Translations under genes and position numbers: made by a program | Shown here: positions 1 to 61,421 of the stretch, in pieces | Layout: each line of letters starts with the position of its first letter | Position numbering within the stretch: position 1 is the first letter of the stretch | NCBI GenBank assembly: GCA_963721815.1 | Contig: CAVRLO010000024.1 | Location: 422,234 to 486,233 of the forward strand | DNA: 64,000 bases | Source: an uncultured Candidatus Rokubacteria bacterium | Lineage (GTDB): Bacteria; Methylomirabilota; Methylomirabilia; Rokubacteriales; CSP1-6 | Direction of reading: 5' to 3' | The notes under the pieces: model-generated | Seen by the model: the letters and a program-made list of their open reading frames with translations, nothing else | The model's database searches: none | What the model was told of the DNA's origin: nothing

Positions 1-508
1 GACGTCGGCGCCGACACGGGTCGCGTCGCCGTGGCCGGTGATTCGGCCGGCGGCAATCTCTCGGCCGTCGTCTCGCAGCTCGCCGCATCCGGCGGCGTGC
101 CGGCTCCGACGTGTCAGGTGCTGATCTACCCGGCCGTCGACTTCTCGCTCGACACCGGCTCGCACAAGGACCTGGCCGACGGCCACGTGATCCCCCGCGA
201 CCGGATCCTCTGGTACATGGAGCAGTATCTGCGGAACGACGGCGGACAAGTCGGATCTCAGGGCGTCTCCGCTGCGCGCCGCCAGTCTGAAGGGCCAGCC
301 GCCGGCCATGATCGTCACCGCCGGCTTCGATCCGCTCCGCGACGAGGGCCGGGCCTACGGCGATCGGCTGCGCGAGGCCGGCGTCGACGTCGTCTACCGC
401 GAGTACCCCGGGCAGATCCACGCGTTCGTGTCCCTGACCAAGGCGATCCCGCAGGGCATGGCGTGCACGCTCGAGATCGCGGAGTTTCTGCGCCGGCGTC
501 TGGGCTGA
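1..508 (+). CDS. alpha/beta hydrolase, HSL-family esterase/lipase (5' partial; apparent frameshift near 255)
   Basis: GDSAGGNL nucleophile-elbow motif in frame 1; C-terminal 'SPLRA..LKGQPPAMIVTAGFDPLRDEG...HAF' continues in frame 2 (ORF 308..508). Confidence 0.6.
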
Positions 509-9880: not shown

Positions 9881-10810
9881 CTAGAGCTTGATCCGCAGCA
9901 GCTTCGCCGCCGTCTCGCTCAGCATCGCCCGGCGATCCGCGTCACTGAAGCCCGGAGCTTTCAAGATGTGATCGATCGACTTGTCCTGCCAGGGGATCGG
10001 ATGGTCGGTCCCGATGACGAGCTGACTCACGCCGACTTCCGCCGCCAGGTGACGCAGTGCCTCCGAGGTGAAGACCAGGGTGTCGTAGTACATCTGGCGG
10101 AGATACTCGGTCGGCTTCTTCTTCAGCTTGACGCCGGTGTCCATGTCCGGCGCGACCCGCAGGCTGTTGTCCGAGCGCGGCGCGTAGGACGGCAGGAAGC
10201 CGCCGCCGTGGGCCGAGCAGATCTTGAGCCGCGGGAAGCGATCCAAGGTGCCCTCGAAGATCAGGTGCGAGAGCGCGATGGTCGTGTCCAGCGGGTTGCC
10301 GATCGTGTTCGCGAGCCAGCCGTTGCCCTGGAATCGCTTGGCCAGATCCGGCGTGCTCTGCGGATGAATGAAGATGAGCACGCCGAGCTCCTCGGCCTTG
10401 GCCCAGAACGGATGAAACTTCGCGTCGGAGAACTCGTCCCCGGCGACGCTCGCGCCGACGGCGGCGCCGCGCAGCCCGAGCCTTTTCACGCCGTCGACGA
10501 GCTGTTCGACCGCGAGATCCGGATACTGGAGCGCGACCGATGCGAAGGCCACGAAGCGGTCCGGGTACTTCCCGCAGAACTCCGCGAGCCGCGTCGTTCT
10601 GGATCTTGATCACCTGGGTCACCAGATCGCGCTCGGCCCGATACCACGCCGGGTTGATACTGAGCGCCTCCATGTCGATGCCCTGCGCGTCCATCTCCCG
10701 GATGCGCCGAGGGCCGACCTCGTCGATCCCGGGCCCGCGATGGTCTTGCACCTTGAGCCCCAGCAGCGCGTACGCCTCCGGGATCACGCAGTGCGCGTGC
10801 ACGTCGATCG
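9881..10810 (-). CDS. amidohydrolase-2 family (ACMSD-like metal-dependent hydrolase); apparent frameshift near 10590; start uncertain
   Basis: N-terminus 'KTIDVHAHCV' in the frame of ORF 9942..11003; remainder 'FVAFASVALQYPD...GTDHPIP' in the frame of ORF 9881..10552. Confidence 0.55.
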
Positions 10811-11042
10811 TCTTCACCCGGCGGCCGCCGACGACCACCTCCCGACGCCGGCCCGGCGCGGGCGCCTGGCCGCGCCGTTCGGCCGTCCGCGCGGGCGCCT
10901 TGCCTCTCGCAGCCGATCGAGCCGAGGGGCGCGCCGCGCCGCGCGCGGCAGTGACCACCTCGCAGGTCGTGAAGGAGATGTCGAATGCTGTGCTCACACT
11001 CATCGCTGTCCCCCTGGAGTCGGTCTCTTCCCGAAGCGCCGC

Positions 11043-19815: not shown

Positions 19816-20283
19816 TCAAGTCGTAGCCGCGGCGCGCCTCGCCTCGCGCAGCCCGGCGAGGATCGCATCGCGATCGAGGCTCATTTCCATCAGCGCGACC
19901 TGGGCCTCGTACACGTCCGCCGGCACCTGGTCACGCACCTCGGGCTCGAACACGTGAAACACAGGGAGCCCCAACGGGACTCCGGCCAACGGGCCCGCGT
20001 AGGAAGGATCGCCGGCGACGACGGTCTGGGCGAGCGTCTGCGTGCTCTCGGCGTCGGGGGTCCCGAGCAGGACCACCACGCCGCTGCCGTGCTCGTCCGC
20101 GATTCGCTTCACCGCCGCTTGATCCTCCAGGCCCATGGCGCCCGCCGCCGTTCAGACGTAGCAAGCGGTCAGGGTCAGCACGACGTCGGCGCCAGCGCGG
20201 CTCGCGCATTCCGCGACCGCGGGGCCCGGCACGCCGTCGCGCTCGCCGAGCGCGATGACCTTCTTGCCTCGGAGATCCATCAT
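19816..20283 (-). CDS. grdA: glycine/sarcosine/betaine reductase complex selenoprotein A (GrdA); UGA (Sec) at 20152..20154
   Basis: '[61 protein letters not shown]' matches the GrdA CxxU context; ATG overlaps the GrdC-like stop (ATGATG/TGA). Confidence 0.8.
20152..20154 (-). other. in-frame UGA, predicted selenocysteine codon of GrdA
   Basis: conserved position 44 in the 'CYVU' motif. Confidence 0.75.
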
Positions 20284-21734
20284 GTCGCTCCTTTCGCTCC
20301 GTTGCGCTCCAGGACGAGCGAGAGCCCGTCGGGGAGCTGCGTCATCCGTCCAAGAAACAGACTACCCTTGCCCGCGAACATCGTGCGGGTGAGGCGGCCC
20401 TCCGTGAGCCCGCGCCGCGCGTGGCCGAGGTACGGGATCGCCGAGGCGATGTGCCCCTGGGTCGGCGAGAATCCCGGCATGCCGCGCGTACGAACGAAAT
20501 CGTCGATGCCCTCGCGAGCGATCAGCTTCTCGACGACGGCCAGGCTCGCCAGGGTCCGGTAGTTGTTGAGCGGGACGTTGCCGCTGCCGGCGGGCTCGGT
20601 CGCTTCGGGGTTGTGCAGCTCGAGCGAGAAGCGGTCGACGTCGAGCAACGTGAGGCCGACCCGCCCGAGCGGCTCGCTGTAGAGCGATTTCACCACCGCG
20701 AGCGGGGCGGAGCCCGAGCCGACCTCGTGGCGGCCGATCGCGTCGAGCCGCAGGGTGGGCGAGACGCCGTCGTCGCGCGAGACGTGAACGGCGAAGCCGG
20801 CCAGGACGTCCTCGACGATCGGCATCGCGTGCTTCAGGTGGCCCTGGAACTTCATCCCCAGCTTGGCCAGCGAGCCGCCCGCCACCACGACCACGTCGTC
20901 GTGCAGGCCGCTGCGGACGAGCGCGCCGGCCAGCATCAGCGCGTGCATCGGCCCGCAGCAAAACGCCTTGATGTCGCTGCCGGTCGCGCGCGCGCAGCCG
21001 GCCCACTCCGCGACCGCCTTGGCGACGTTGCCGCCGCCCCGCTGATAGCGGTCGCCGACCGCCTCCTCACCGCAGTTCATGACGTAGCGCACGTCGGCGG
21101 CGGCGATCGCGCCGGGGCGCGCGAGCAGGTGACGCAGCGCCATCGCCGCGGTCGCCTTGCACGCGAGGTTCTCCAGCAGGACCTGGCCGGTCAAGGTGTC
21201 GTCCTCGTCGTGGCCCGGCAGCATGGCACCCAGGAGCCGTCCGTCCACCCCGACGATCGGCAGCGCCCGATGCCTCGCGATGCGCTCGTCGAGCAGGGCC
21301 TCGGTGACCCCGGCGCGCACCGGAGGGCGGCCGGACTCGCGACCAACTATGGGATGCGCGTCGAGCGCCGCGCGCGCGCGGTCGGCCAGGTCACGCTCGA
21401 GGGCCAAAAGGTCGAAGCCATCCGAGGCCGCCAGCAGGCCGAAGAACTCGTGCTCGGGCATGATCTCGCCGTCGGGCCCGAAGCGGCTCGCGGCTTCGAT
21501 GGGATGGCGATGCCACGGGACCGGCCGGGCGGCGAGGTCGTCCACGCCGACATTGCCGATGAATACCTGATTGGGCGCGTAGGTGCGCGCGGCGTCCCAG
21601 TCGCGCAGATGGGGCCGCAAGTACTCGATCGGTTTCTCGACCTCGCGCAGCACGCGCAGCGGCTTCGAGCCCAGGCGCACGAGGCTCGGCACGTGCGCCA
21701 GCACGAGGGAGACCGCGCGGACAACGGGCATGTC
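20280..21734 (-). CDS. GrdC-like protein (glycine reductase complex component C beta-subunit-like, thiolase/FabH-fold)
   Basis: ~485 aa; coupled to grdA; start chosen at '[18 protein letters not shown]' (ORF runs to 21767). Confidence 0.55.
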
Positions 21735-21763
21735 GCTCGAAGGCATGCGAGTCACGCGAGGCA

Positions 21764-22629
21764 TCATACCCTCTGGCCGGCTCGCAGCGCACGGTAGCGG
21801 GCAGGCGTGAGGCCAAAAGCCGATTTGAACGTTCGGGTGAGGTGCGCCTGGTCGGCGAAGCCCACCTCGTACGCGACCTCGATCAGCGGACGCCCGCGAT
21901 GAATCAGCTCGCGCGCGGCATCGAGGCGGCGCATGAGCAGATACCGGTAAGGGCTCGTGCCGAACATGAGCCTGAACTGGCGGGCCAGGTCGTAGCGGGT
22001 CAATCCCGTGACCGACTCCAGCTCGTCCGAGCGAACCACGCGCGTTTTCGCGGCGTCCAGAAACCGGCGCGCGCGCTCGGCGGCGACGGCGTCGACCCGT
22101 CTCGAGGCCCCGGGAGGTTCCCCTGCGTGCTCCGCGGCGAGCAGGCCGTCGGCCAGATCGACGACGAGACTGGTCGCCGCCAGCGATTCCAGCGGGAGCC
22201 GGAAGGCGGCGTCGAGCGCGCGGGCCAACCGGGTGTTCGCGGACACCGGGTCACGTACGAACGGCAACGGACCGGGACGTCCACGGAGGGTCCGCACCGC
22301 CTCGGCCAGGTGGGCGGGCTCGACGTAGACGATGCGGTATCCGAACCCCTCCTCGGTGCCCGCGCGGCCGTCGTGGGCTTCGTCGGGGTAGAGCACGACG
22401 ATCTGTCCCGGGGTACTGACCCGTGTGGCGCCCCGGTAGTCGAAGACTTGGGCTCCGCGGTCGGTCAGGCCGATCGCGTACGTGTCGTGGCGGTGCTTCT
22501 GGTAGGCGACGCCGCCGAACCAGGCGCGAAACAGCTCGACGCCCTCGGCCGGGTTCGTGCTGGTGACCCAGCTTCGGGTCGCGCGCGTGCACGATCGTTC
22601 AAGACCCTCGCCGCCCGATGTGGTCTCCT
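21764..22629 (-). CDS. AraC-family transcriptional regulator (cupin N-domain + HTH)
   Basis: C-terminal 'YRYLLMRRLDAARELI...EVAYEVGFADQAHLTRTFKSAFGLTPARYR'; GTG start proposed at 22629. Confidence 0.6.
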
Positions 22630-23263: not shown

Positions 23264-23944
23264 CTACCGGCTCCCCACCGGGCTTTGGCCGGCGATCTGC
23301 GCCGTCTCGGGCGACAGCGGAATCACACCGCCGGGCTCGCCGGCCAGGATCCAGTCGATGAGCAGGCGATAGCGATCCGTCGGCACGGCGCCCACCAGCG
23401 AGAGCTTCTCGTTGAGGACGACGGTCGGCAGGCCCGACACGCCGAACCACGCGGCGCCCTCGGCGCAGTCGCGCAGCACGGCTTCGTAGGCCTCGCCGGC
23501 GTAGTCGGCCTCGAAGCGCGTCGGATCGAGCGCCGTTTCGCGGATGAGGCTGCGCAGCACCTCCGGGCGCGAGATGTCGAGGTTGTCGCGGAAGTGCGCG
23601 GTGAAGAGCCGCTCGTGGAATCGCTCGAACGCCGCGTCACCCTGGAGCTCGGCGCACTTGGCGGCCGTCAGCGCCGGCACGCTCGAGGACGGCAGCGGCG
23701 TGTCGATCTCCGGCGGCACGAAGACGGCGCGAGGCTCCTCGGCGCCGACGCGCTGCCGCCCTTCGCGCGTCTTCTGGGTGACGCGCCGGTCGGGCTGCTC
23801 GCCCGGGATCAGCGGGAAGGTCCGCCAGTGGAGCCGGATACGATCGCCGTAGGTCTGCTGGATCTCGCGCAGGCGCACCGCGGCGTTGTAACACCAGGGA
23901 CACAAGTAGTCAGAGAAGACGTCCACGCGGACCGGCGCGGTCAT
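23264..23944 (-). CDS. DsbA-like (FrnE-type) thioredoxin-fold oxidoreductase with CPWC motif
   Basis: 'VDVFSDYLCPWCY'; ATG overlaps the GrdB-like stop (ATGA). Confidence 0.7.
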   Translation of the reverse strand: MTAPVRVDVFSDYLCPWCYNAAVRLREIQQTYGDRIRLHWRTFPLIPGEQPDRRVTQKTREGRQRVGAEEPRAVFVPPEIDTPLPSSSVPALTAAKCAELQGDAAFERFHERLFTAHFRDNLDISRPEVLRSLIRETALDPTRFEADYAGEAYEAVLRDCAEGAAWFGVSGLPTVVLNEKLSLVGAVPTDRYRLLIDWILAGEPGGVIPLSPETAQIAGQSPVGSR

Positions 23945-25264
23945 TCGCGCGTGAACACCGTGGGCCGCGCCACCTCGGTGCGCAGCGCCTGGAGCGCCTG
24001 CTCGACGATGCGCCGCCGCAGCGCCTTCTCGTCCTCGGGCGAAAGATCCGCGCTGCCCAGGGGATGGATGATCCCCGCGGCCGACACGATGCGATTGGCG
24101 CCGACCATCACCGCCACCGGCGTCATGGTCGAGACCTGCACCGTCGGTAACCCCGCGCGCTCGAGCTCTCGCGTGATCGCTGCGCCGCAGCGAGTGCTCG
24201 TCCCTCAGGTGGAGGTGAGGATGACGGCGTCGACGCCGGCGGCGCGCAGCTTCTCCGCGATCTCCCGCCCCATGCGCGCGCTCTGGGCCAGGGTGGTCGC
24301 GACGCCGACGGTCGAATAGACCGTCTCGTGGAGCTTGCCGATCGCGCCGCTCTGCTCGAGCTCGCGCGCGACGTCCACGGGCACCAGCCGATGCGGATCC
24401 TGCTTTACCCACGTGGTGTCGTAGCCGCGATGCGGATTGTCGTACTGGGTCGCGTCGAGGCTCGACTTGCCCTCGATGCTGTAGGCGCCGTAGCGGGTCG
24501 CGTTCAGGGCCTCGATCCCGTCGGGGTTGCCTTGCGGGACGAGACCGCCGTCGGTGACGAGCGCGATCGTCGCGCCCTCGAGCGTCTTGATGAGCCGCGG
24601 CGCCGCGACGGGCGGGAACGCCGGCCTCGGCACCTCCGTCGCGAAGGCCCGGCCGCCGAGCTTGTCGAGCAGCATGGCCACGGCGCGATCGGCGGCGCTG
24701 GCGCCGGCGACGACGTTGCGGGTGACGCCACGGGCGAAGTAGCCGTGAGCGGCCGGGCTGCCGAGCGCCTCGCCGCGCGCGAGCTTCAATCCGAGCCCCA
24801 CGAGCCGCTGCACCTCCGGGAGCATCCGCGTGGCTTCCGCGCCGGTCTGGACGACGTAGACCTGGCGGCGATAGAGCTCGACGCCGGGATTCTCGGCGTG
24901 CATGCCGGTCACGGTCGGAATCTTCAGCTCGGCTTGCACCGCGGCGCAGAGCGCGCCGCACGCGACGCCGTAGCGGCCGGCCAGGAACGCCGGGCCCGGC
25001 CACCAGGAGATCGGGCCGCGCCGCGGCCACCAGGCGCACCAGCTCGGCGGTCGCGCGCTCGGCCTGCTCGGCCGCGTAGTTGTCGCCGCAGATCACCGTC
25101 GCGACGACCGTGCCCGCGTCGCCGAGCGCCTGCTGGACGGCGCGCGCGGCCCCGACGGCCCCGTCCGCGACCTGGGGCCCGACGCCGGCCTTCTCCTCGC
25201 CGCCGAGCTGGCCGAAGAACTGGTTGAGGTAGCAGACGACTCGCAACGTCTCGGCCGCCATCAC
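23941..25264 (-). CDS. GrdB-like selenoprotein (glycine/sarcosine/betaine reductase component B family), paralog 1; UGA (Sec) at 24205..24207; apparent +1 frameshift near 24990
   Basis: N-terminus 'LRVVCYLNQFFGQLGGEEKAG' (ORF 23264..25264 frame); middle 'AFLAGRYGVACG...GVDAVILTST' then TGA then 'GTSTRCGAAITRELERAGLPTVQVSTMTPVAVMVGANRIV' (ORFs 24205..24939 and 23941..24141 share a frame). Confidence 0.7.
24205..24207 (-). other. in-frame UGA, predicted selenocysteine codon of GrdB-like paralog 1
   Basis: 'ILTST-U-GTSTRC' context; CGCTGC-GGC-GCAGCG hairpin downstream. Confidence 0.7.
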
Positions 25265-26523
25265 CGCACCTCCGCCATCACTCTGGTTGTCCCGACCTGC
25301 TCGATCGCGCCGCAGAGCCCGCCGTACGTGACGCGAGTCTCGCCCAGGAGCTTCGGCGCCAGATCATCGGCGCCGATCACACGGTCCATCGCCGGCAAGG
25401 TGAGCGGCTCCTGGCTGCTCCCGACGTTCACGAGCGCGTCGACCCCTGGAAAATCGAAGAGCAGCATGCCCTCGGCGCTGCCGTCGGTCGACATGTCCTC
25501 GACGACCGCCGTCGTCTTCACGCCCAGCGCCTCGCACTGCGAGGCCGCCTGCGCCATGTCGACGTGCGGGGCGCCGCCGCCGATCTTGGTGAGGACGGCG
25601 CCGTCGGCGCCGAGCGTGTGCGCGACGAGCCCGGCGGTGAGGAACGCCGAGCGTACGCGCTCGGGCTCGGTCGCCTGCGCGACGGTGACGACCACGCCCG
25701 CGAACCAGAGCGTGCGGCCGTGCTGCGCGTAGAGCGCCCTGATCATCGGATGATTCTGGGTCGCCCACGTGGTCACGCTGCGGCCCATGAAGCCCCGGAG
25801 CACGGCGCCGTCGAGGACTTCGTTCGGGTGCACGATCGTCGGCAGCATGCGACGCACCGGATCGCCGTAGAGGATTCCCTCGTCGAGGCCCGTCGGGCGC
25901 TGGTGCGAGTGGATCTGGAAGACGTAGGCCACGCGCGGCAGATGCGCGAGCTCGGCGGGAACGCGCGGCGAGGGCGGCAGCTCGAACACCTCCACCCGAT
26001 CGGGCGCGGCCTCGTGCGCGGCCCGGGCGAGGTGCACCGCGGCCTTCAGCGCGGCGAGCCGCACGGCGGCCAGATAGTCGGAGCGCTCGGTGCCCGGCGA
26101 GGGCCAGGCCGAAATTACGAGGTTGTGCGTGCGGCCGAACGCCGAGAGCGCCGCGTTGGGGCCGGCCATGTCGATCACGGCCAAGGTGCCGACGTTGTCC
26201 GTCTGCTGATCCGTCGCGACGACCGCCACGCCGGCCAGCGCCGTCGTCCGCCCGTGGCCGGCGCGCCCGACGCCGCCCAGGACGCCCGGGAAATCCTCGC
26301 CGCCGTCGACCTTCGCCCGCGGCGCGATCACGTCGAACACCCGACCGATGCGGCAGCGCTCGCCCGGATGCGCGAGGTCGAGGCGAATCCGGGCGAGGCG
26401 CGAGTCGGCGGACAGGAGCTCGCGCAGCTCGTCGAGATCGACCTCGAGCCGCTTGCCCACCAGACGCGTGACGGGCGCGGCCACGAGGGCGTCCACGTCG
26501 GACCAGCGTAGCTCGAGTCGCAT
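25261..26523 (-). CDS. GrdE-like proprotein (component B alpha/beta subunit family), paralog 1
   Basis: 420 aa from 'MRLELRW'; homologous to the 41055..42395 product; the longer ORF extension to 27126 is an artifact. Confidence 0.6.
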   Translation of the reverse strand: MRLELRWSDVDALVAAPVTRLVGKRLEVDLDELRELLSADSRLARIRLDLAHPGERCRIGRVFDVIAPRAKVDGGEDFPGVLGGVGRAGHGRTTALAGVAVVATDQQTDNVGTLAVIDMAGPNAALSAFGRTHNLVISAWPSPGTERSDYLAAVRLAALKAAVHLARAAHEAAPDRVEVFELPPSPRVPAELAHLPRVAYVFQIHSHQRPTGLDEGILYGDPVRRMLPTIVHPNEVLDGAVLRGFMGRSVTTWATQNHPMIRALYAQHGRTLWFAGVVVTVAQATEPERVRSAFLTAGLVAHTLGADGAVLTKIGGGAPHVDMAQAASQCEALGVKTTAVVEDMSTDGSAEGMLLFDFPGVDALVNVGSSQEPLTLPAMDRVIGADDLAPKLLGETRVTYGGLCGAIEQVGTTRVMAEVR

Positions 26524-28904: not shown

Positions 28905-28933
28905 GGGAAGCTCTGTCCGGGGGAGGAGCTGCC

Positions 28934-35484: not shown

Positions 35485-35527
35485 GGTTCGATCTCCTCCG
35501 TTGCGATCCACCGAGCCCAGGGGACCG

Positions 35528-36248: not shown

Positions 36249-36430
36249 GGTGATCCTCCTCCGCGCCACCAACCGTCAGGGCGCCCGTACGCTGCAGGCA
36301 TCGCCGGAGAGCATATCTCCCTCGACCTCGGCGGAACAGCCCCGGGGCAGTGTCGCGCCGCCCTTGCTCACTCGTTGTGTTGGCGCTACGGTTGCCCCAC
36401 GATTCGGGCCGGCGGTTCGCGGGAGGCGCA

Positions 36431-37189: not shown

Positions 37190-37416
37190 AGGACGGCCCC
37201 GATGAGCGGGGCAGGTATTGAAGCGCTTGACAACGCCACGGCGGAGACTACCATCCGCCACGAAGGGTAGGGTAACTCTCCACGCATCGACGGCTGATCG
37301 CTTGAGGTGTCCCGATGCGATCAGGTGCTTGTTCCTGCAGATCTGACACCTTTCCCGCGCCTGTGAGCGGGCAAGGTCCCTCCGCGAAAGGTCCCTCCGC
37401 GAAAGGAGAACCTGCG

Positions 37417-39015: not shown

Positions 39016-39038
39016 GCCGGCGGGGCTAGGTAATCGCC

Positions 39039-40016: not shown

Positions 40017-40028
40017 GGAGATAGACAG

Positions 40029-41054: not shown

Positions 41055-42395
41055 TCAGGTGAGCGGCGCTCGGGGGCCGTCTACTCGATGCAGCTCAAGC
41101 TGCTGAAGCCATAGTGGTCGTCGTACCGCCACGGCGGCGGGAGCGGCCCCGCCGTCGGCAGCGCGGCGCCGTCCACGCCGCCATGAAGCCCGATGGTCGA
41201 GCCCCGCCGCACGATCTTCGTGGGCGCGCCGATCACGCGCGAGACCGCGGGCGCTTCGGGCACGGCCAGGGTGACGTTCTTGAAGAAGCTCGTGCTCACG
41301 ATCGCGTCGGCCTCGGGCAGGGGCTCGAGCATGGTGGGCGCGCCGTCGGTCGCGTCGTCCTCGCTGGTGAGGAACACGGTCTTGATGCCGAGGCGCTCGC
41401 ACGCCTGGATGCTGCGCACCACCTCGATGAACTCGTTGCCTCCCGCGTCCCACGTGACCACGGCGCCCTGCGCGCCGAGCTGGCTGGGCGAGCTTGGCCG
41501 TCTGATTGGCCATCAGCTGCTTCTCGGTTTGCGTGGTCCACTCCGTGCGGAGCGAGATGACGCCGAGGAAGTTCCAGTCGCGGCCGTGGCGGCGGTAGAG
41601 GTCGAGGAAGAGCGGATTGTTGGCGACGGTCCATGACATCGCGAACGCGGTGCGGTAGGGGCCGGTGAGCGCGCCGTCCAGGATCTCGTTCGGGTGCAGA
41701 TACCACGGCGGCGTGAGCTGGGTCAGGCCGTACGTCGCCGTGCAGAACGCCGAGGGTGATGCCGACATCGCCTGCGGCGAGTGCACGCACCAGATGTAGA
41801 CCACCTTCGGGAGCTCCGGATCCACCGGCGTCAGCTCGAAGACCTCGCGCTCGGGCGGCGTGAGCGCGCGCACCGCTTCGCCGAGCTGGTCGGCGACGGT
41901 GAGCGCCGCCTTGTGCACGGCGTAGTTCTTGACCTCTTCGTTCAGGCTCGAATCGGGCTCGACGACCAGGCAGAGGTTCAGGAGCTTCTGGTAGGGGTAC
42001 ATCTCGCCGTAGTGGCCGGACATGTCGAGGTACGTCTCGACGAAGTCGCCGCCGGCGTCGTGCCAGTTGACGCTCGACACCTCGACGACGCCCATGCCGG
42101 CGAGGCGATGCGTGCGGCCGTCGCCCACCGTGGCGATCTCGCGCCCGCAGATGCCGGGATAGCAGACGCCGGGCCCCTCGACCTTGACGCGCGGCTCGAT
42201 CACGTCGCGCACCGGCCAGATCCGGACCGACTCGCCCGGCTTCGCGATCTCGAGCCCGGCGCTCGCGATCCGCGGATCCTGGCGCACCGCCTCCAGCACC
42301 GCCTCGCGGTCCACCGTGAGCCGGCCCGCGTCGTAGCGCGTCGTTCGCCCGAAGACGATGTCCGTGACCGGGAAGGTGCCCATCTCAAGACGCAT
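41055..42395 (-). CDS. GrdE-like proprotein, paralog 2; apparent +1 frameshift near 41495
   Basis: N-terminal ~320 aa in the ORF 41055..42395 frame; C-terminal '[27 protein letters not shown]...' in the ORF 41081..41461 frame; homologous to paralog 1. Confidence 0.55.
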
Positions 42396-43734
42396 GAGCC
42401 GCCTCCTCAGTCTTACCTGGCGCCATAGGGTCGAAGAGCGTCGGCCCGGGCACGGCGATCGTCAGGGTCTGGAGCGCGGTGGTCACGATGCGCATACCGA
42501 AGGCGTAGTCCTTCTCCGGGCTCAAGGTCGGGTCGCCGCACACGTGCTCGATGCGCGCGCCGCGGATCACGCGGTTCGCGCCGGTCGTGAGGGCGAAATT
42601 GTAGATGGCCGAGATCATGCCGACGGGGATGCCGACTCGCTCGATCTCCTTGGCTATCGTTGCGCCGCAACGATTGCAGGTTCCTCAGGTGGCGACCAGC
42701 AGGGCCCCGTCGACGCCGCCGGCCTTGAGGTCCTGGGCGATGCTGCGGCCGTGCCCGGCCGACACCGCCACCGGCGTGCTCACGCCGGGCAGCGCGTAGA
42801 TGTGCTCGTGGACGCGGCCCACCTTGCCCTGGCGCTCGAGATCGCGCAGGAACGAGAGCGGCAGGATGTAGTTCGGGTTGCTGTTGACGAGATGGTTGAA
42901 GTAGCCGGCGTGGTAGGCCTCCCATTCGGCCGGCGAGAGCGACTCGAGCTCGGTCACCGTGTGCCGGTGATAGCGCACGGCGTTCGCCGAGACCTGCCGG
43001 TCGGGGTTGCCTTTGCGGACGAGCCCGCCGGTCGTGACCATCGCGATGCGCGCGCGCGAGAGGTCGGCGATCGGCGCCGCCGGGGCCACGCGCTCCGGCG
43101 CCGCGTAAGGCACTTCCGACCGAAAGGGCCGGCCGTGGAGCTTGTCGAGCAGCATGTCGAGCGCGCGCTGATAGCCCGGTCGCCCGCGGTCGTGCACGCG
43201 GCGCGTGCCGCGAGGCATGTAGCCCTCCACCTCGGACGGCCCCAGCGACTCACCGCGGCCCAGGCGCCGCGCGAGCGGGGCCAGCGCGTCGAGCGCGGCC
43301 TGCATCGACGTCGTCGACGAGCCCGAGGGCACGATGTAGATCCCGCGCCGCGCGCCCGAGGCGCCCGGATTTTCCGGATGCATCGCCGTGATCGCGGCAA
43401 TGCGCAGCCCCTGGGCCACCTTGCAGGCGAGCGCGCAAGCCAGGCCGTATCGCCCCGATCCGAACGCCGGACCGGCGACCAGCACGTCGGGCTTGATGCG
43501 CTCGAGCTCGGCTGCGATCGCGCGCGCGGCTTCGGCTTCGCTTTCGCTCGCGAAGTTGTCGCCGCAGACGATGGTCGCCTCGACTCGCGCGCCGTCGCCG
43601 AGCGCCTTCTCGAGCACGCGCCCCGGGCCGACGGCTCCGGCTTGCACGGACACGCCGACGTGCGCCTGATCCTCGCCGCCGATGCCCCCGAAGAACTGGT
43701 TCACGTAGTGCACGACGCGAAGCGGACTGCTCAT
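42385..43734 (-). CDS. GrdB-like selenoprotein, paralog 2; UGA (Sec) at 42685..42687; frame intact
   Basis: '[18 protein letters not shown]' N-terminus; '[10 protein letters not shown]' then TGA then '[30 protein letters not shown]' (ORFs 42685..43734 and 42385..42618 share a frame). Confidence 0.75.
42685..42687 (-). other. in-frame UGA, predicted selenocysteine codon of GrdB-like paralog 2
   Basis: 'VAT-U-GTCNRC'; ATCGTTGC-GGC-GCAACGAT hairpin starting 13 nt downstream. Confidence 0.75.
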
Positions 43735-51727: not shown

Positions 51728-53015
51728 GCGAAGGTCATGAGGCATACGACGTGGTCCGCGGTCGTGCTGGGAGTCGTCGCCGTGGCGCTCGGCGCCGGGG
51801 TTGTCGGCGGCCAGCAGCCGCTCAGCGGGGAGTACAAGATCGGCGTGCTCGAGCCGCTCACCGGCAATCTCGCCGTGCAGGGCAAGCTGCACGTCGAAGG
51901 CTACGAGATCATGCGCGACCTCATCAACACCCGCTTCGGCGGCGTGATGGGCAAGAAGCTAGTCTTCGCCGTCGGGGACGCCGTCGATCCCACGGCGGCC
52001 GCGTCCGAGGCCACCCGACTGGCCACGCGGGAGGGCGTGAAGATCATCACCGGCACGTTCTCCTCTACGCTCTGCGGCGCGGCCAGCGAGGCGGCGGCCC
52101 GACAGAACGTCATCTACTGGGAGACGTCGTGCGTCGATCCGCGCCTGACGCGGCGCAATCTGAAGAACGTGTTCCGCACCGAGATCGACGGCACCGGGTT
52201 CGGCTGGTACAACGTCGAGTTCATCGCCAAGCATCTGGCGCACCGTCTCGGCAAGAAGACGAGCGAGCTCAAGATCGCCTATCTCTCGGAAGACTCGTCC
52301 TACGGCCAGAGCGTGACCGAGTCCGCCCGCCAGCGCGCCAAGCAGGAGTTCGGCATGCAGGAGGTCGGGCCCGAGTACTACACGTTCACCACCAACGACC
52401 TGACGCCGGTCATCCTGAAGCTCAAGGCCGCGAATCCGGACATCCTGCACCACATCGCGCGCGACCAGGACGCCATCCTGTTCTGGCGCCAGGCGCGGGA
52501 GCAGGACTTCCAGGTCAAGGCGGTCGTGCACGCCGGCGCGACCGGCTACGGCAACCCGGGCTTCGGCAAGGCATTCGGCAACGACGCCAACGGGCCCTTC
52601 GCGCTGCTCGAGCCCGGGCCCGGGTCTGGTCATGGAGAAGTTCCGGCCGGAGGGCCAGGCGGTCGAGCGCGCGTTCCGCGAGGCGGTGAAGGCCAAGACG
52701 GGCTCCGACGTGCTGGCGGGCGGGCATCAGCTCGCGGGCGGCGGCCTCTGGGTGCTGAAGCTGGCGCTCGACGCCGCGAAGACGGACGACCTCGACAAGT
52801 TCCGGACGGCGGTCCTGTCGCTCGACCTGCCGGTCGGCTCCGCCGTCAACGGCTGGGGCGTGAAGTTCGACGAGACGGGCCAGAACTCGAACGCGCGCGT
52901 GCAGCACTACATGCTGCAGTGGCAGAACGGCGCGCTCGTCACGGTGTGGCCGGAAGAGTTCACGACCAATCGCGCCAAGTGGATTCCGCTCGGCCCCTGG
53001 GACCAGCGGAAGTAG
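51728..53015 (+). CDS. branched-chain amino-acid ABC transporter substrate-binding protein (LivK-like); apparent frameshift near 52600
   Basis: signal peptide; ORF 51662..53128 frame up to ~52620, then ORF 52632..53015 frame. Confidence 0.55.
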
Positions 53016-53132: not shown

Positions 53133-54019
53133 ATGACGCGCTACGATCCCGCAGCTGATCGTCTCGACGCTCTTGCTCGGGCGGCGTCTACGCGCTCATC
53201 GCCGTGGGGCTCACGCTCATCTTCGGCGTCATGCGCGTCGTGAACTTCGCGCACGGCGAGTTCCTGATGCTCGGGATGTACCTCGCGTTCTGGGCGTTCG
53301 CGCTGCTCCACTTCGACCCGTACCTGACGCTTCTCGTGTCGCTGCCGATCTCGTTCGTCGTGGGCTGGGCCAGCTATCGCGGCGTGATGCGCCCGATCAT
53401 CGGCGCCTCGCACAACGTGCAGGTCTTCACGACGGTCGGGCTGTCGATCGCGCTGCAGAACCTCGCGCTCGTCCTGTTCACGGCCGACGCCCGTTTCGTC
53501 CGGACGGACTACTACGCGGTCGTCGTGCGGATCGGCGGCGCCGCGTTCAACGTGGCGCAGATCGTCGCGTTCGCCATCGCCGTCGTCCTGACCGCCGGGC
53601 TCTTCGCCTTCATGCGCTGGTCGTACGCCGGCAAGGTGATGCGCGCGACCGCGCAGGACCGCGACGCCTCCGCGCTCATGGGGATCGACACCGACCGCGT
53701 CTATGCGCTCACCTGGGCGGTGGGCATCGCCTGCGTCGGCGCCGCCGGCGTGCTGCTGGCGCCGATCTATCCGGTCTACCCGACCGCCGGCCTGCAGTTC
53801 GTCCTGATCGCCTACGTCGCGGTCGTGCTGGGCGGCCTCGGCGACATGGCCGGCGCGCTGATCGCCGCGCTCGTAGTCGCGGCGGTCGAGGTGATGGGCT
53901 CGTACACGATCGGCACGGCGTGGAAGGAAGTGCTCTACCTGTTGCTGTTCATCGGCGTGCTCGTGGTGCGCCCCGCCGGACTCTTCGGCCAGCGCGGCGC
54001 CGAGGCGCTCGGCACGTGA
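53133..54019 (+). CDS. livH: branched-chain amino-acid ABC transporter permease LivH; N-terminus needs two frame changes within 50 bp (53135-53182)
   Basis: 'IPQLIVSTLLLG' (frame 1) then 'GVYALIAVGLTLIFGVMRVVNFAHGEF' (frame 2); intact from GTG 53204. Confidence 0.55.
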
Positions 54020-54990
54020 AGGCGATCGCGCCCGCCGTCGTCTTCTTCGCGGTCGCCGGCCTGGCGCCCCTCGTGGTGCGCGACGCGTTCCTGCTCGACA
54101 GCCTCGTCCTGATCCTGCTCTGGGGCAGCGCCGCGGCGGCCTGGAACGTGGCGGGCGGCTACGCCGGCCAGATCTCGCTCGGCCACTCCGCGTTCTTCGG
54201 GCTCGGCGCCTACGCCGCCGCGCTCTTGGTCACGCGCTGGGACGTCTCGCCGTGGATCGGCCTCGCGGTCGGCGCCGTCGTGGCGAGCGCGATCGGGCTG
54301 GTCGTCGGCTATCTGTCCAATCGCCTGCGCGGCCCGTACTTCGTGCTGGCGACGATCGCGTTCTCCCAGGTGCTGCTGATCGTCGGCAGCCGCTGGCGCG
54401 GCTTCACCGCCGGCTCCGAAGGCATTCCCGTTCCGTTCCGCCCCGGGTTCTGGACCCTCGGCATCGCGGACAAGCGGATTTGGGTCTGGATCGCCCTGGC
54501 CCTCGCGCTGATCGCCTATCTCTTCCAGCTCTACCTCGATCGGTCGCGCCGCGGCTATCAGCTGGTGGCGGTGCGCGAGGACGAGGATGCCGCGCTGTCG
54601 CTCGGCGTGCCCGCGCGGTGGCTGAAGGTGGCCGCGATCTGCGTCAGCGCCGCGCTCACGGCCGCGTGCGGCGCCTTGTGGGCCCAGTACATCGGCTTCG
54701 TCGATCCGTTCTACGTGTTCTCGGTGGACCTCTCGGTCAAGTTCGCTCTGGCGGCGATCATCGGCGGCCTCGGCACGGCACTGGGGCCGTTCCTCGGCGC
54801 CGCCCTCGTGACGACGGTCGAGACCTACCTGCGCGCCCAGTTCGGCGGCATCGGCGCCGGCCTCGTCGGCATCTACCTGATCGTGTACGGCTGCGCGCTC
54901 ATCGTGATGGTGCGATGGGTGCCGCACGGCCTCGTCGGGTGGATCGGCGAGCGGTGGCGCGGGCGCGCCGCCGCGGAGACGGCCTCGTGA
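54015..54990 (+). CDS. livM: branched-chain amino-acid ABC transporter permease LivM
   Basis: GTG start overlapping the livH stop (GTGA); C-terminal part of ORF 53173..54990. Confidence 0.7.
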
Positions 54991-55710
54991 GCCTCCTGTC
55001 GGTCGCCGGCGTCTCCAAGCGCTTCGGCGGCATCGTCGCCAATCGCGGGATCTCGTTCGACGTTGAGCCGGGCGAGCTGGTGGGCATCATCGGGCCGAAC
55101 GGCGCCGGCAAGTCGACCTTGTTCGAGATCATCACGGGCTTCTACCATCCGGACGAGGGCGAGGTGCGGCTGGACGGGGCCCGACTCACCGGCCTGTCGC
55201 CCGACGTCGTGTGCCGGCGCGGAGTGGCCCGCACCTTCCAGAAGCTGCGACCGTTTCAGGGGCTCAGCGTCCTCGACAACGTCATGGTCGGTGCCTTGAC
55301 CCGCACGAGGGACGTGCGGCACGCGCGCGACCGGGCGCGCGAGCTGGTCGACAAGGTGGGGCTCTCCGAGAAGGCCGAGGCTCACGCTCGCACGCTCTCG
55401 ACCGGACAGCGCAAGCGCCTGGAGCTCGCGCGCGCGCTCGCCACCGAGCCGCGCCTCCTGCTGCTGGACGAGGTCACCGGCGGCGTGGACCAGCGGACGA
55501 TCCCGGAGCTGGTGCGCCTGGTCCGAGCGCTGCACGCGCGGCGGCCTCACCCTGCTGGTGATCGAGCACAACATGCGCGTGATCACCGCGGTGGCGCAGC
55601 GGATCGTCGCGCTTCAGCTCGGCGAGGTCATCGCCGACGGCCCGCCCGACGCGGTGGCGCGCGATCGGCGGGTGGTGGAGGCGTATCTGGGGCAGGCGTA
55701 TGCCGGGTGA
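54987..55710 (+). CDS. livG: ABC transporter ATP-binding protein LivG; apparent frameshift near 55545
   Basis: Walker A 'GPNGAGKST'; 'LSTGQRKRLELARAL' signature; C-terminus '...LTLLVIEHNMRVITAVAQRIVALQLGEVIADG...YLGQAYAG*' in another frame. Confidence 0.6.
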
Positions 55711-59880: not shown

Positions 59881-61406
59881 ATGGCGAGCGCGAAGCTTCC
59901 GACCCCTGACGAGCTCAAGGCCGTCGGCCGGCAGATGGGGATGAGCCTCTCCGACGCCGACATCGCGTTCTTTCTGGAGACCATGGGCGGAACCGTGGCG
60001 GCCTATCACGCGATCGAGGCGATGGCCGATCCGATGCCGCCGGTGAAGTATCCGCGCACGCCCGGCTATCGCCCGGAGGGCGCGGAGAACAAGTACAACG
60101 CCTGGTACTACAAGAGCGAGGTGCAGGGCGCGCCCTCGGGTAAGCTGCGCGGCAAGCGGATCGCGCTGAAGGACAACGTCTGCCTGGCCGGCGTGCCCAT
60201 GATGAACGGCGCCTCGACCCTGGAGGGCTACGTCCCCGACGTCGACGCGACCATCGTGACGCGCATGCTCGACGCCGGCGGCACGATCATGGGCAAGGTG
60301 CACTGCGAGTATTTCTGCTTCTCCGGCGGCAGCCACACGAGCGCGGCGGGCCCAGTGCAGAATCCGCGGAAGCCGGGCTACTCGGCGGGCGGCTCGTCGT
60401 CGGGCAGCGCGGCCGTCGTGGCGGCGGGCGAGGTCGACATGGCGATCGGCGGCGACCAGGGCGGCTCGATCCGCATCCCCGCCGCGTACTGCGGCGTGTA
60501 CGGCCTCAAGCCCACGCACGGCCTCGTGCCGTACACCGGGCATCTTTCCCATCGAGACGACGCTCGATCACACCGGCCCGATGACGGCCACGGTGGCCGA
60601 CAACGCGCTGCTGCTCGAGGTGCTCGCAGGGCCCAGACGGGCTCGATCCGCGGCAGATCGACGTGAAGACCGCCGCCTACACGAACGCGCTGACGGCTGA
60701 CGCGCGGGGCATGAAGATCGCGGTCGTGAAGGAAGGCTTCGGCCACGCGACCTCGGAGGCGGACGTGGACGCGCTGGTTCGCAAAGGCGCGGCGACGCTT
60801 AGGCAGCTCGGCGCTCAGGTGGACGAGGTGTCGATCCCGCTACACCTGGCCGGCCCCGCCATCTGGACGCCGATCGCCGTCGAGGGCGCGACCTGGCAGA
60901 TGCTGAACGGCAACGGCTTCGGCTTCAACTGGAAGGGCCTCTACGTGACGAGCCTCATCGACGCGCATGCGGCGTGGCGTCAGCGCGCCGACGAGTTCTC
61001 CGACACGTTGAAGACGACGATCCTGTTCGGTCAGTACGCGCTCAACAAGTACCGCGGCCACTACTACGCGAAATCGCAGAACCTCGCGCGCTCGCTGCGC
61101 GCGGCGTACGACGCGGTGCTGAAGGACTACGACTTGCTGCTTATGCCGACACTACCTTTGAAGGCGACACCGCTGCCGGCGCCGGGGGCGCCGCGTATGG
61201 AGATCATCCAGCGGGCGTTCGAGATGTTGCACAACACCGCGCCGTTCGATGTCACCGGCCACCCGGCGATGAGCGTGCCGTGTGGGCTCAGCGACGGGCT
61301 GCCGGCGGGGATGATGCTGATCGCGAAACACTTCGACGAGGTGTCGATCTACCGGGCGGCGTCGGCGTTCGAGAAGGCAGGGGACTGGAAGGGGATCCGG
61401 CCGTAG
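59881..61406 (+). CDS. amidase (amidase-signature family); two apparent frameshifts near 60545 and 60640
   Basis: '[30 protein letters not shown]' then '[14 protein letters not shown]' then '[13 protein letters not shown]...' in three successive frames. Confidence 0.55.
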
Positions 61407-61421
61407 GCCGGGTCAGGCCTA

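What the first reader, a model, noticed from the sequence alone, without database searches (positions are those of the whole stretch)
24980..25000. Each GrdB/GrdE-like pair has one member with an apparent frameshift, leaving intact GrdE-like 1 and GrdB-like 2 at different loci
GrdB-like 1 switches frame at 'LLVAGP|AFLAGRYGVACG' near 24990, an extra G in a GGGCCC run. GrdE-like 2 switches near 41495 ('AKLAQ|[15 protein letters not shown]', an extra C). If these are real, only a cross-locus GrdE1/GrdB2 combination is intact, which would be unusual. If they are sequencing indels, both pairs are functional. Either way it changes the functional inference for the system.
Basis: seen in the sequence. 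Interest (0 to 1): 0.55.

Follow-up and report, generated by a model that had tools for sequence, protein, structure and literature searches.

The report
Assembly insertion errors, not Grd pseudogenes
The two frameshifts are really in the sequence, but they are two of at least ten stray inserted bases that break unrelated genes across this window. That is the mark of an error-prone long-read assembly, so both selenoprotein reductase gene pairs are most likely intact in the organism.

Summary
Both frame switches exist. GrdB-like 1 carries one extra base at 24990/24991. Deleting one base restores full-length Pfam matches.

They are not specific to the Grd genes. The window holds at least eight more frame-breaking insertions in seven unrelated genes: an esterase, an amidohydrolase, a binding protein, LivH-like and LivG-like transporter genes, an amidase (hit twice) and an NMT1-like protein.

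- Where relatives are available, every one lacks the extra base: 3/3 for GrdB1, and 12/12 genomes plus 3 metagenome contigs for GrdE2.
- All lesions are insertions. None is a deletion.
- dN/dS is about 0.08–0.10 on both sides of each lesion, the same as in the intact partners.
- The window's proteins map to one 878-kb MAG contig.
- Among 87 ortholog copies in 80 loci, split grd genes occur only in three Nanopore-only MAGs and one 4.6-Mb-contig assembly, always as +1 shifts.

Verdict: assembly artefact, with both pairs probably functional. Read-level proof is not available here.

In passing: both GrdB genes are TGA-selenocysteine genes, and grdC and selenoprotein grdA lie nearby.

The parts
25261..26523 (-). 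GrdE-like 1 (420 aa), intact. It is a partner subunit of the protein-B type.
   Evidence: Pfam PF09338 1-392/426, 308 bits. It is 94.6% identical to the L001 ortholog, with dN/dS 0.078. It lacks the Asn-Cys self-cleavage site of Firmicute GrdE.
23941..25264 (-). GrdB-like 1, a selenoprotein B family gene. It is broken in the assembly by one inserted base. The start is probably the ATG at 25261.
   Evidence: After repair: PF07355 2-347/347, 453 bits, and TIGR01918, 518 bits. It aligns as one 440-aa segment, 95% identical, to L001.
24990..24991 (-). Inserted base in GrdB-like 1. The coding strand has CCCG[G]CG where relatives have CCCGCG.
   Evidence: The base is absent from L001, L014 and L015. 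It is the only uncompensated coding indel in the 4.9-kb alignment to L001.
24205..24207 (-). In-frame TGA, the selenocysteine codon of GrdB-like 1. The motif is U-G-T-S-T-R-C.
   Evidence: TGA occupies this column in 91/91 family matches across 80 loci.
24165..24204 (-). SECIS hairpin of GrdB-like 1 (UCGCUGC-GGC-GCAGCGA).
   Evidence: Rfam SECIS_4 gives only 20.4 bits, E=0.03, below the gathering score. The hairpin is identical in L001, L014 and L015, and differs from the GrdB2 hairpin by a compensatory change.
23264..23944 (-). DsbA-like thioredoxin-fold gene (CPWC motif). Its ATG overlaps the GrdB-like 1 stop codon (ATGA).
   Evidence: Pfam DSBA 1-187/191, 88 bits. The same gene order occurs in L001.
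42385..43734 (-). GrdB-like 2, a selenoprotein B family gene. It is intact when the TGA is read as Sec.
   Evidence: PF07355, 381 bits. TIGR01918, 421 bits. 85-93% identical to orthologs in 12 relatives.
42685..42687 (-). In-frame TGA, the selenocysteine codon of GrdB-like 2. The motif is U-G-T-C-N-R-C (UxxCxxC).
42647..42684 (-). SECIS element of GrdB-like 2.
   Evidence: Rfam RF01990 SECIS_4, 42.5 bits, above the gathering score of 38.
41081..42395 (-). GrdE-like 2. It is broken in the assembly by one inserted base. Its start overlaps the end of GrdB-like 2.
   Evidence: After repair: PF09338, 283 bits. It aligns in one frame at 89-95% identity in all 12 relatives: over residues 1-437 or 3-437 in 11, and over the 259 residues present in L004, whose locus ends inside the gene.
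41482..41483 (-). Inserted base in GrdE-like 2. The coding strand has CAG[C]CAG where relatives have CAGCAG.
   Evidence: The base is absent from 12/12 related genome loci and from 3/3 metagenome contigs that match the flanks exactly.
41081..41083 (-). Second window-specific inserted base, inside the GrdE-like 2 stop codon. Relatives read GAGTGA and the window reads GAGTAG. It is harmless.
20280..21767 (-). GrdC (reductase complex component C, beta subunit).
   Evidence: NCBIfam NF040746, 588 bits, above the cutoff of 450.
19816..20283 (-). GrdA, selenoprotein A. It has an in-frame TGA at 20152-20154 and the motif C-Y-V-U.
   Evidence: 93% identical to the L039 ortholog.
241..246 (+). Further frame-breaking insertion, in an Abhydrolase_3 gene (<1..508).
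   Evidence: The two pieces match profile positions 66-146 and 139-209 in different frames. After repair: 66-209/210, 151 bits.
10589..10590 (-). Further frame-breaking insertion, in an Amidohydro_2 gene (10838..9881).
   Evidence: After repair: 1-289/289.
52616..52618 (+). Further frame-breaking insertion, in a Peripla_BP_6 binding-protein gene (51737..53015).
   Evidence: The extra base is absent from L007 and L011. After repair: 2-339/343.
53177..53177 (+). Further inserted base, in the 5' part of a LivH-like permease gene.
   Evidence: Absent from L007 and L011. The true start was not resolved.
55537..55539 (+). Further frame-breaking insertion, in a LivG-like ABC ATPase gene (54987..55710).
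   Evidence: ABC_tran and BCA_ABC_TP_C fall in different frames. The base is absent from L007 and L011. Repair joins the two domains.
60538..60632 (+). Two further inserted bases (about 60538 and about 60632), in one amidase gene (59881..61406).
   Evidence: Both are absent from L002, L006, L007 and L011. After double repair: Amidase 35-442/445, 320 bits.
61677..61678 (-). Further frame-breaking insertion (+2 nt), in an NMT1-like binding-protein gene (62332..61419).
   Evidence: Absent from L003, L006 and L007. After repair, a single 303-aa ORF.

Best explanation
The two frameshifts are single-base insertion errors of the assembly, not mutations of the organism. The window comes from a very long contig of a Methylomirabilota ('Rokubacteria') metagenome-assembled genome. 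Its consensus carries stray extra bases at roughly one per 3-6 kb. Two of them happen to fall in the four grd-like genes.

In the living cell, both protein-B-type pairs (GrdE1+GrdB1 and GrdB2+GrdE2) are most likely intact. They would work alongside the neighbouring grdC and selenoprotein grdA genes as two substrate-specific arms of a glycine/sarcosine/betaine-reductase-family system.

What is shown:
- the lesions themselves;
- their absence from all relatives;
- their presence in many unrelated genes;
- their insertion-only direction;
- the lack of any relaxed selection.

What is inferred:
- the sequencing platform;
- that raw reads would not support the extra bases;
- that the repaired genes are expressed and functional.
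For: 1. Lesions are not confined to the grd genes. A codon-usage frame scan, Pfam on the separate pieces and Pfam on the repaired genes show frame breaks in Abhydrolase_3, Amidohydro_2, Peripla_BP_6, LivG-like, amidase (twice) and NMT1-like genes. There is one more in a LivH-like gene.
2. In the 27.5 kb of the window covered by relatives, there are 10 events where the window differs from all covering relatives. All are insertions in the window and none is a deletion. The two sites without relatives are also +1 shifts.
3. GrdB1 is uninterrupted in L001 and L015. More than 100 database homologs at 83-95% identity are uninterrupted at 346-351 aa. GrdE2 reads in a single frame in 12/12 relatives, and 3/3 metagenome contigs lack the extra base at the site.
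4. There is no decay. dN/dS for GrdB1 is 0.081 upstream and 0.079 downstream of the lesion. GrdE2 gives 0.07-0.11. The intact GrdE1 gives 0.078 and GrdB2 0.095-0.12. The Sec TGA and the SECIS hairpin of GrdB1 are conserved.
5. Exact window proteins are on record on a single 877,846-bp contig, with sources NCBI and ENA.
6. Among 87 ortholog copies at >=60% identity in 80 genome loci, genes split across frames occur only in L014, L021 and L029 and in L027 (4.6-Mb contig). The first three are MFD MAGs, which are Nanopore-only, assembled with Flye and polished with one round of Medaka (PMC12313526). All the resolved shifts there, 9 in L014, L021 and L029, are +1. No split gene occurs in a short-read MAG.
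7. Spurious frameshift pseudogenes from long-read or low-coverage assemblies are documented (PMC11017572, PMC8103633).
Against: - No reads, coverage or quality values are available, so the error is inferred and not seen.
- No strain-level relative (>95% nucleotide identity) was found. The closest DNA is 87-92% identical. A very recent real mutation in this lineage therefore cannot be excluded site by site.
- Several insertions are not in homopolymers (for example GTC[T]GGG and GAGT[A]GACG). That is not the classic homopolymer error.
- The platform of the source assembly is not known to me.
Confidence: 0.86

Rival explanations
1. The insertions are real, recent mutations. GrdB-like 1 and GrdE-like 2 would be young pseudogenes in this lineage, either as part of genome-wide gene decay or a mutator phase, or as variants caught in the assembled population.
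For: The lesions are unambiguous in the sequence. Two paralogous pairs could make each copy partly dispensable. No strain-level relative was found that could contradict it directly.
Against: - This would need nine or more of roughly 60 genes to be freshly inactivated, including transporter ATPase, permease and amidase genes.
- Every one of them would be hit by insertion only, with no deletions, no premature stops and no larger damage.
- dN/dS is as low as in the intact genes.
- The same +1-only pattern appears independently in other long-read MAGs of different species and never in short-read MAGs.
Confidence: 0.08
2. Programmed +1 ribosomal frameshifting or transcriptional slippage restores the frame, so the genes are functional as written.
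For: Both shifts are +1, and the GrdB1 site lies in a G/C run (GGGCCCGG).
Against: - The shift is absent from every ortholog: 3/3 and 12/12 genome relatives, plus 3/3 metagenome contigs for GrdE2. A programmed site would be conserved.
- The same lesions hit seven unrelated genes with unrelated sequence contexts.
- No slippery heptamer or long homopolymer is present.
Confidence: 0.02
3. Real inactivation has left a working cross-locus heteromer of GrdE-like 1 and GrdB-like 2.
For: These are the two genes with unbroken frames in the assembly.
Against: - It depends on the lesions being real (see above).
- The pairs are distant subfamilies: B1/B2 are 44% identical and E1/E2 35%.
- Gene order is opposite in the two pairs, E-B versus B-E.
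- Each B lies next to its own E wherever the relative's sequence reaches the partner gene.
Confidence: 0.02

Closest known systems
Spurious frameshift 'pseudogenes' in long-read or low-coverage assemblies (Cooley & Wright 2024, PMC11017572; Nanopore MAGs, PMC8103633; the MFD-LR Nanopore-only MAG catalogue, PMC12313526)
   Same: - Scattered 1-nt indels split otherwise well-conserved genes in many unrelated families.
- The lesions are absent from short-read relatives.
- The source contig is very long (878 kb).
- Other long-read MAGs of the same phylum (L014, L021, L029) show the same +1 splits in the same grd genes.
   Different: - The lesions are all insertions, and about half are outside homopolymers. 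Textbook Nanopore errors are homopolymer-length errors.
- The platform of this assembly is not known to me.
Glycine/sarcosine/betaine reductase of Eubacterium acidaminophilum and Clostridium sticklandii. Substrate-specific protein B (GrdE+GrdB, GrdG+GrdF, GrdI+GrdH) shares selenoprotein A (GrdA) and protein C (GrdC+GrdD). Sources: my own knowledge of Andreesen's work, and summaries in PMC13188914 and PMC9908766.
   Same: - Two different B-type pairs lie in one genome region together with one grdC and one Sec-containing grdA.
- Both GrdB-like proteins carry Sec at the family's conserved position.
- GrdB-like 2 has the UxxCxxC motif.
   Different: - Both GrdB-like proteins pass only the subfamily model TIGR01918. 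They fall below the equivalog cutoffs for GrdB, GrdF, GrdH and PrdB.
- Both GrdE-like proteins lack the Asn-Cys site that yields the pyruvoyl group.
- No GrdD homolog is in the window.
- A DsbA-like gene is translationally coupled to GrdB-like 1.
- The host is a high-GC soil Methylomirabilota bacterium, not a fermenting Firmicute.
Betaine reductase protein B (GrdH selenoprotein + GrdI), in which the GrdE-like subunit is not processed to a pyruvoyl enzyme (my own knowledge)
   Same: The GrdE-like partners have no Cys at the cleavage column, as in the second GrdE-like paralog of Anoxynatronum in the alignment. JGI names some homologs 'betaine reductase'.
   Different: GrdB-like 1 and 2 score 459 and 375 bits against the GrdH model, whose cutoff is 775. 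The substrate is unknown.
GrdEBCA clusters in environmental MAGs such as Lost City Dehalococcoidia/SAR202 (bioRxiv 10.1101/2022.01.25.477282), and the large predicted selenoproteome of a Methylomirabilota MAG (PMC13188914)
   Same: The grdB-grdE-grdC-grdA order recurs in the Entotheonella, Dehalococcoidia and Rokubacteria loci fetched here. The selenoprotein genes sit in a Methylomirabilota genome.
   Different: In this window the B2-E2 pair is separated from grdC-grdA by about 20 kb. A second pair (E1-B1-DsbA) sits next to grdC-grdA.

Membership tests
Glycine/betaine/sarcosine/D-proline reductase family selenoprotein B (Pfam PF07355, NCBIfam TIGR01918) | Full-length match to the family profile above the curated cutoff | tested here: met
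   GrdB1 after repair: PF07355 453 bits and TIGR01918 518 bits. GrdB2: 381 and 421 bits. The cutoffs are 22 and 65.
Glycine/betaine/sarcosine/D-proline reductase family selenoprotein B (Pfam PF07355, NCBIfam TIGR01918) | In-frame TGA (Sec) at the conserved active-site position, followed by a SECIS hairpin | tested here: met
   TGA at 24205-7 and at 42685-7. TGA in 91/91 family matches. SECIS_4 gives 42.5 bits for B2. B1 scores only 20.4 bits, but its hairpin is conserved in three orthologs, with a compensatory pair relative to B2.
Glycine/betaine/sarcosine/D-proline reductase family selenoprotein B (Pfam PF07355, NCBIfam TIGR01918) | UxxCxxC redox motif (PMC13188914) | tested here: inconclusive
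   GrdB2 has UGTCNRC, so the feature is met. GrdB1 has UGTSTRC, with Ser in place of the first Cys, and this is conserved in L001, L014 and L015. The feature is therefore not met for the B1 subfamily.
Glycine reductase GrdB proper (NCBIfam equivalog TIGR01917), or GrdF, GrdH, PrdB | Score above the equivalog cutoff | tested here: not met
   GrdB: 478 and 366 bits, cutoff 602. GrdF: 492 and 404, cutoff 800. GrdH: 459 and 375, cutoff 775. PrdB: 92 and 71, cutoff 300.
GrdE-type proprotein of protein B (Pfam PF09338) | Match to the family profile | tested here: met
   308 bits for E1 and 283 bits for E2 after repair. The cutoff is 22.
GrdE-type proprotein of protein B (Pfam PF09338) | Asn-Cys self-cleavage site giving an N-terminal pyruvoyl group (Cys242 in C. 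difficile GrdE, PMC9908766) | tested here: not met
   Firmicute GrdE sequences have SGN|CVSACDKN at this column. GrdE1 has RGFMGRSV--TTW and GrdE2 has [11 protein letters not shown]. The orthologs of each have no Cys at this column either.
Complete glycine/sarcosine/betaine reductase complex | Selenoprotein A (GrdA, CxxU motif) is encoded | tested here: met
   20283..19816 (-), with C-Y-V-TGA. NF040748 gives 112 bits on the post-Sec part alone.
Complete glycine/sarcosine/betaine reductase complex | Protein C: both GrdC and GrdD are encoded | tested here: inconclusive
   GrdC is present (NF040746, 588 bits, cutoff 450). tblastn with two Firmicute GrdD sequences finds no GrdD homolog in the window or in any non-Firmicute locus. 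The rest of the genome could not be searched.
Complete glycine/sarcosine/betaine reductase complex | Thioredoxin and thioredoxin reductase as electron donors | not tested
   Only a DsbA-like CPWC protein was identified, next to GrdB1. The genome outside the window is unavailable.
True pseudogene (real inactivating mutation) | The lesion is supported by the raw reads | not testable with these tools
   No reads or quality values are available.
True pseudogene (real inactivating mutation) | Signs of relaxed selection or further damage, or a lesion shared with relatives | tested here: not met
   dN/dS is 0.08-0.11 on both sides of each lesion, equal to the intact partners. There are no other lesions. 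The extra bases are absent from all relatives.
Assembly indel artefact | The same kind of lesion is spread over unrelated genes at a rate far above natural pseudogene density, and it correlates with assembly type | tested here: met
   At least 10 frame-breaking insertions in 9 genes within 64 kb. The source contig is 878 kb. Split grd orthologs occur only in long-read-type MAGs.
Programmed frameshift | The shift site is conserved in orthologs | tested here: not met
   Orthologs are uninterrupted in one frame at both sites: 3/3 and 12/12 genome relatives, plus 3/3 metagenome contigs for GrdE2.

The most novel reading that the evidence does not exclude
The insertions are real. This Methylomirabilota lineage has just lost GrdB-like 1 and GrdE-like 2, and it either runs a hybrid GrdE1/GrdB2 enzyme or is shedding the system, as part of a burst of insertion mutations across the genome. 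This is not excluded, because no reads and no strain-level relative are available.
Probability: 0.04. Interest if true: 0.45.

Novelty: not a real feature. Interest (0 to 1): 0.1.

Why it matters
The value is practical.
- Anyone annotating this contig should treat frameshifted genes as probable assembly errors. Both Grd-like pairs should be counted as present, along with the amidase, Liv transporter and other genes.
- The in-frame TGA codons should be read as selenocysteine and not as truncations.
- If the frameshifts were taken at face value, the metabolic reconstruction would wrongly drop one subunit from each reductase pair. It might also invent an odd cross-locus enzyme.
- The density of lesions, roughly one per 3-6 kb, warns about every other gene call on this contig.

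The underlying system may be worth a separate look. It has two non-canonical protein-B pairs without the pyruvoyl cysteine, together with GrdC and GrdA, and no GrdD in view. That is not the finding under review.

Tried and rejected
- **Exact-protein look-ups.** Three window proteins (GrdB2, the 2-hydroxyacid dehydrogenase and the histidine kinase) were looked up to fetch the source contig or strain-level copies. Nothing was on record in that index. The cluster look-up did show that they exist on one 878-kb contig.
- **Exact-pattern scan for the GrdB1 site.** A scan of metagenome contigs, allowing zero or one extra base, gave no match. The same scan for the GrdE2 site gave three contigs, all without the extra base but only 90-92% identical to the window. 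No strain-level comparison was possible.
- **The one genome-collection scan.** It did not return the source genome. The best hit was 92% amino-acid identity.
- **First junction heuristic.** My first stop/start heuristic for frame junctions was unreliable in this 69% GC sequence, because long spurious ORFs are common. I replaced it with a codon-usage maximum-segment scan plus Pfam and alignments to relatives.
- **Decaying SECIS in GrdB1.** I considered that the weak Rfam score (20 bits) of the GrdB1 SECIS might mark decay of a pseudogene. I rejected this because the hairpin is identical in three intact orthologs.
- **Programmed frameshifting.** Rejected for lack of conservation.
- **LivH-like start.** The start of the LivH-like gene after repair at 53177 was not resolved.
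- **Literature.** A search for Rokubacteria together with glycine reductase found nothing.
Full report
**Observation**

All four genes lie on the minus strand. In GrdB-like 1 the coding strand reads CTCCTGGTGGCCGGGCCCGGCGTTCCTGGCC. One frame gives ...PDLLVAGP and the +1 frame continues AFLAGRYGVACG.... In GrdE-like 2 the coding strand reads GCCAAGCTCGCCCAGCCAGCTCGGCGCGCAGGGC. One frame gives ...TAKLAQ and the +1 frame continues [15 protein letters not shown]....

Deleting one base from each gene gives proteins that match Pfam GRDB over 2-347/347 (453 bits) and Gly_reductase over 1-384/426 (283 bits).

Alignments to relatives place the extra bases at + strand 24990/24991 and 41482/41483.

A plain ORF list hides the first lesion. 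The shifted frame stays open for 666 codons and runs into the next gene.

**What the genes are**

The window is 69% GC. The closest DNA comes from Candidatus Rokuibacteriota / Methylomirabilota MAGs, at 83-92% nucleotide identity.

Both GrdB-like genes have an in-frame TGA after T-[S/A]-T, followed by GT[S/C]xRCGA, and then continue for about 90-100 codons.
- TGA occupies this column in 91 of 91 family matches across 80 genome loci.
- Rfam finds a SECIS_4 element after the GrdB2 TGA, at 42.5 bits against a gathering score of 38.
- The GrdB1 element scores only 20 bits. It forms the same 7-bp stem with a GGC loop, is identical in three orthologs, and differs from GrdB2 by a compensatory pair.

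Both are therefore selenoprotein B family genes. NCBIfam places them only in the subfamily model TIGR01918, below the cutoffs for GrdB, GrdF, GrdH and PrdB.

The GrdE-like partners match PF09338. They lack the Asn-Cys cleavage site (SGN|CVSACDKN) that is present in Firmicute GrdE in the same alignment (the site is as defined in PMC9908766).

Close to locus 1 the window also encodes:
- GrdC, at 588 bits against a cutoff of 450;
- a Sec-containing GrdA with the motif C-Y-V-TGA;
- a DsbA-like gene that overlaps the GrdB1 stop codon.

No GrdD homolog is in the window.

**Are the frameshifts special to the Grd genes?**

They are not. I ran a codon-usage scan of all six frames. Together they show the same kind of break in these genes:

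| Gene | Position | Evidence after repair |
|---|---|---|
| Abhydrolase_3 | about 243 | pieces match profile 66-146 and 139-209; repaired 66-209, 151 bits |
| Amidohydro_2 | about 10589 | 1-289/289 |
| Peripla_BP_6 binding protein | about 52617 | 2-339/343 |
| LivG-like ATPase | about 55538 | ABC_tran and its C-terminal domain, previously in different frames, are joined |
| Amidase | about 60538 and about 60632 | 35-442/445 after two repairs |
| NMT1-like binding protein | about 61677 | +2 nt removed; single 303-aa ORF |

**Comparison with relatives**

Relatives cover 27.5 kb of the window. A net-indel scan over that stretch, with inspection of each site, found ten events in which the window differs from every covering relative. 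They lie at 24989, about 41082, 41482, 52615, 53177, 55538, about 60538, about 60632, 61677 and 62333.
- All ten are extra bases in the window. None is a missing base.
- The two sites without relatives are also +1 shifts.
- Two of the ten break no gene: 41082 lies within the GrdE2 stop codon and leaves a stop, and 62333 lies just upstream of a start codon.
- That gives about one lesion per 3-6 kb, with nine genes broken out of roughly sixty.
- With about ten lesions in 64 kb, two or more hits in the 5.25 kb of grd genes has a probability of about 0.2. Given two hits, the 'one B, one E, different loci' pattern is one of the likelier outcomes. This last point is my own arithmetic.

**Relatives at the two sites in question**

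GrdB1:
- It is uninterrupted in L001 (95% amino-acid identity, a single 440-residue alignment) and in L015.
- More than 100 database homologs at 83-95% identity are uninterrupted proteins of 346-351 aa.

GrdE2:
- It reads in a single frame in all 12 related genomes, at 89-95% identity. One of them, L004, ends inside the gene.
- Three metagenome contigs that match the flanks exactly also lack the extra base.

Over the 4.9-kb alignment to L001, the only uncompensated single-base indel in coding sequence is the one at 24990.

**No sign of decay**

- dN/dS for GrdB1 against L001 is 0.081 upstream and 0.079 downstream of the lesion.
- GrdE2 gives 0.07-0.11.
- The intact GrdE1 and GrdB2 give 0.078 and 0.095-0.12.
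- There are no further stops or indels, and the Sec codon and SECIS are kept.

This shows only that a real mutation would have to be very recent. It removes any positive support for pseudogene status.

**Link to assembly type**

Exact copies of four window proteins are on record from NCBI and ENA, each on one contig of 877,846 bp. That is very long for a soil MAG, and I infer a long-read assembly.

I compared the four Grd proteins with all 80 genome loci, which gave 87 ortholog copies at >=60% identity.
- Genes split over more than one frame occur only in L014, L021, L029 and L027.
- L014, L021 and L029 are 'MFD...' MAGs with Flye-style contig names. That catalogue is Nanopore-only, assembled with Flye and polished with one round of Medaka (PMC12313526).
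- L027 comes from an assembly with a 4.6-Mb contig.
- All nine shifts resolved in the three MFD MAGs are +1.
- No short-read MAG has a split gene.

The window therefore shares both the contig scale and the lesion signature of a class of assemblies known to carry indel errors. Spurious frameshift pseudogenes from such assemblies are well documented (PMC11017572, PMC8103633).

**Conclusion and limits**

The two frameshifts are best explained as assembly insertion errors (confidence about 0.86). Both pairs should be treated as intact selenoenzyme genes.

The limits are:
- I have no reads.
- No relative closer than about 92% nucleotide identity was found.
- About half of the insertions are outside homopolymers, so the error mode is not the textbook one.

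The rivals are as follows:
- Real recent mutation needs about nine freshly broken genes, all by insertion, with no other damage. I give it about 0.08.
- Programmed frameshifting is contradicted by the absence of the shift in all orthologs. I give it about 0.02.
- A cross-locus GrdE1/GrdB2 enzyme needs real lesions plus pairing between subfamilies that are only 35-44% identical. Each B keeps its own adjacent partner wherever the relative's sequence reaches it. I give it about 0.02.

**Comparison with known systems**

Functionally, the region looks like a multi-arm member of the glycine/sarcosine/betaine reductase family. Two protein-B-type pairs share one GrdA and one GrdC, as in Eubacterium acidaminophilum. 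That parallel is from my own knowledge, and the components are as summarised in PMC13188914.

It fails several membership features of the characterised enzymes:
- the equivalog scores;
- the pyruvoyl-forming cysteine;
- GrdD, which is not in view.

GrdB1 also has UxxSxxC instead of UxxCxxC.

GrdEBCA-type clusters in uncultured lineages and selenoprotein-rich Methylomirabilota MAGs are already described (bioRxiv 10.1101/2022.01.25.477282; PMC13188914).

None of this bears on the finding itself, which is an artefact and scores low.

Noticed in passing
window 20280-21767 (-) and 19816-20283 (-): grdC (NF040746, 588 bits) and a selenoprotein grdA lie just beyond the AraC-type regulator next to locus 1. 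grdA has an in-frame TGA at 20152-20154 and the motif C-Y-V-U. The window therefore holds two protein-B-type pairs plus GrdA and GrdC. No GrdD homolog was found in the window.
   Followed up: partly
window 7060-8619 (-), TGA at 8326-8328: This is a fourth TGA-selenocysteine candidate. The ORF reads ...IIGNAA-TGA-GSCATACG... (U-G-S-C motif) and the same frame continues for about 420 more codons. The N-terminal part matches Pfam PF24696, the 'UGSC family'.
   Followed up: partly
window 25261-26523 (-) and 41081-42395 (-); loci L002, L014, L015, L018, L032: Both GrdE-like proteins and their orthologs lack the Asn-Cys self-cleavage (pyruvoyl) site found in Firmicute GrdE in the same alignment. In this they resemble the unprocessed GrdI type.
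   Followed up: partly
window 24184-24207 (-); L001, L014, L015: The GrdB-like 1 subfamily has U-G-T-S-T-R-C, with Ser replacing the first Cys of the family's UxxCxxC motif. This is conserved in three orthologs. GrdB-like 2 keeps UxxCxxC.
   Followed up: partly
window ~243, ~10589, ~52617, 53177, ~55538, ~60538, ~60632, ~61677: Eight further frame-breaking inserted bases lie in seven unrelated genes: Abhydrolase_3, Amidohydro_2, Peripla_BP_6, LivH-like, LivG-like, amidase (twice) and NMT1-like. Gene calls across this contig need frameshift-aware handling.
   Followed up: yes
window 23264-25264 (-): The shifted frame of GrdB-like 1 stays open, which is usual at 69% GC, and fuses with the DsbA-like gene. 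The result is a spurious 666-aa ORF that a naive gene caller could report as a real protein.
   Followed up: yes
window 35434-41077; loci L002, L003, L082-L084: About 5.6 kb next to GrdE-like 2 is absent from the closest relatives. It carries a methyltransferase and a family-5 peptide/nickel-type ABC transporter. In those relatives, the sequence matching window ~35434 follows GrdE2 directly.
   Followed up: no
loci L014 (10001-19363) and L015 (10001-17834): In these relatives the two Grd pairs are only about 3-4 kb apart: B2-E2, then a gene about 68% identical to window 58.4-59.8 kb, then dehydrogenase-E1-B1. In the window they are about 16 kb apart.
   Followed up: no
window 27569-30052 (+): An 827-aa protein combines an adenylate/guanylate cyclase catalytic domain with a full glucose/sorbosone dehydrogenase (GSDH) domain.
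   Followed up: no
window 23941-23944 and 25261-25264 (-): The GrdE1 stop and GrdB1 start overlap, and so do the GrdB1 stop and DsbA-like start (TGATG and ATGA). This suggests the three genes are translationally coupled.
   Followed up: no
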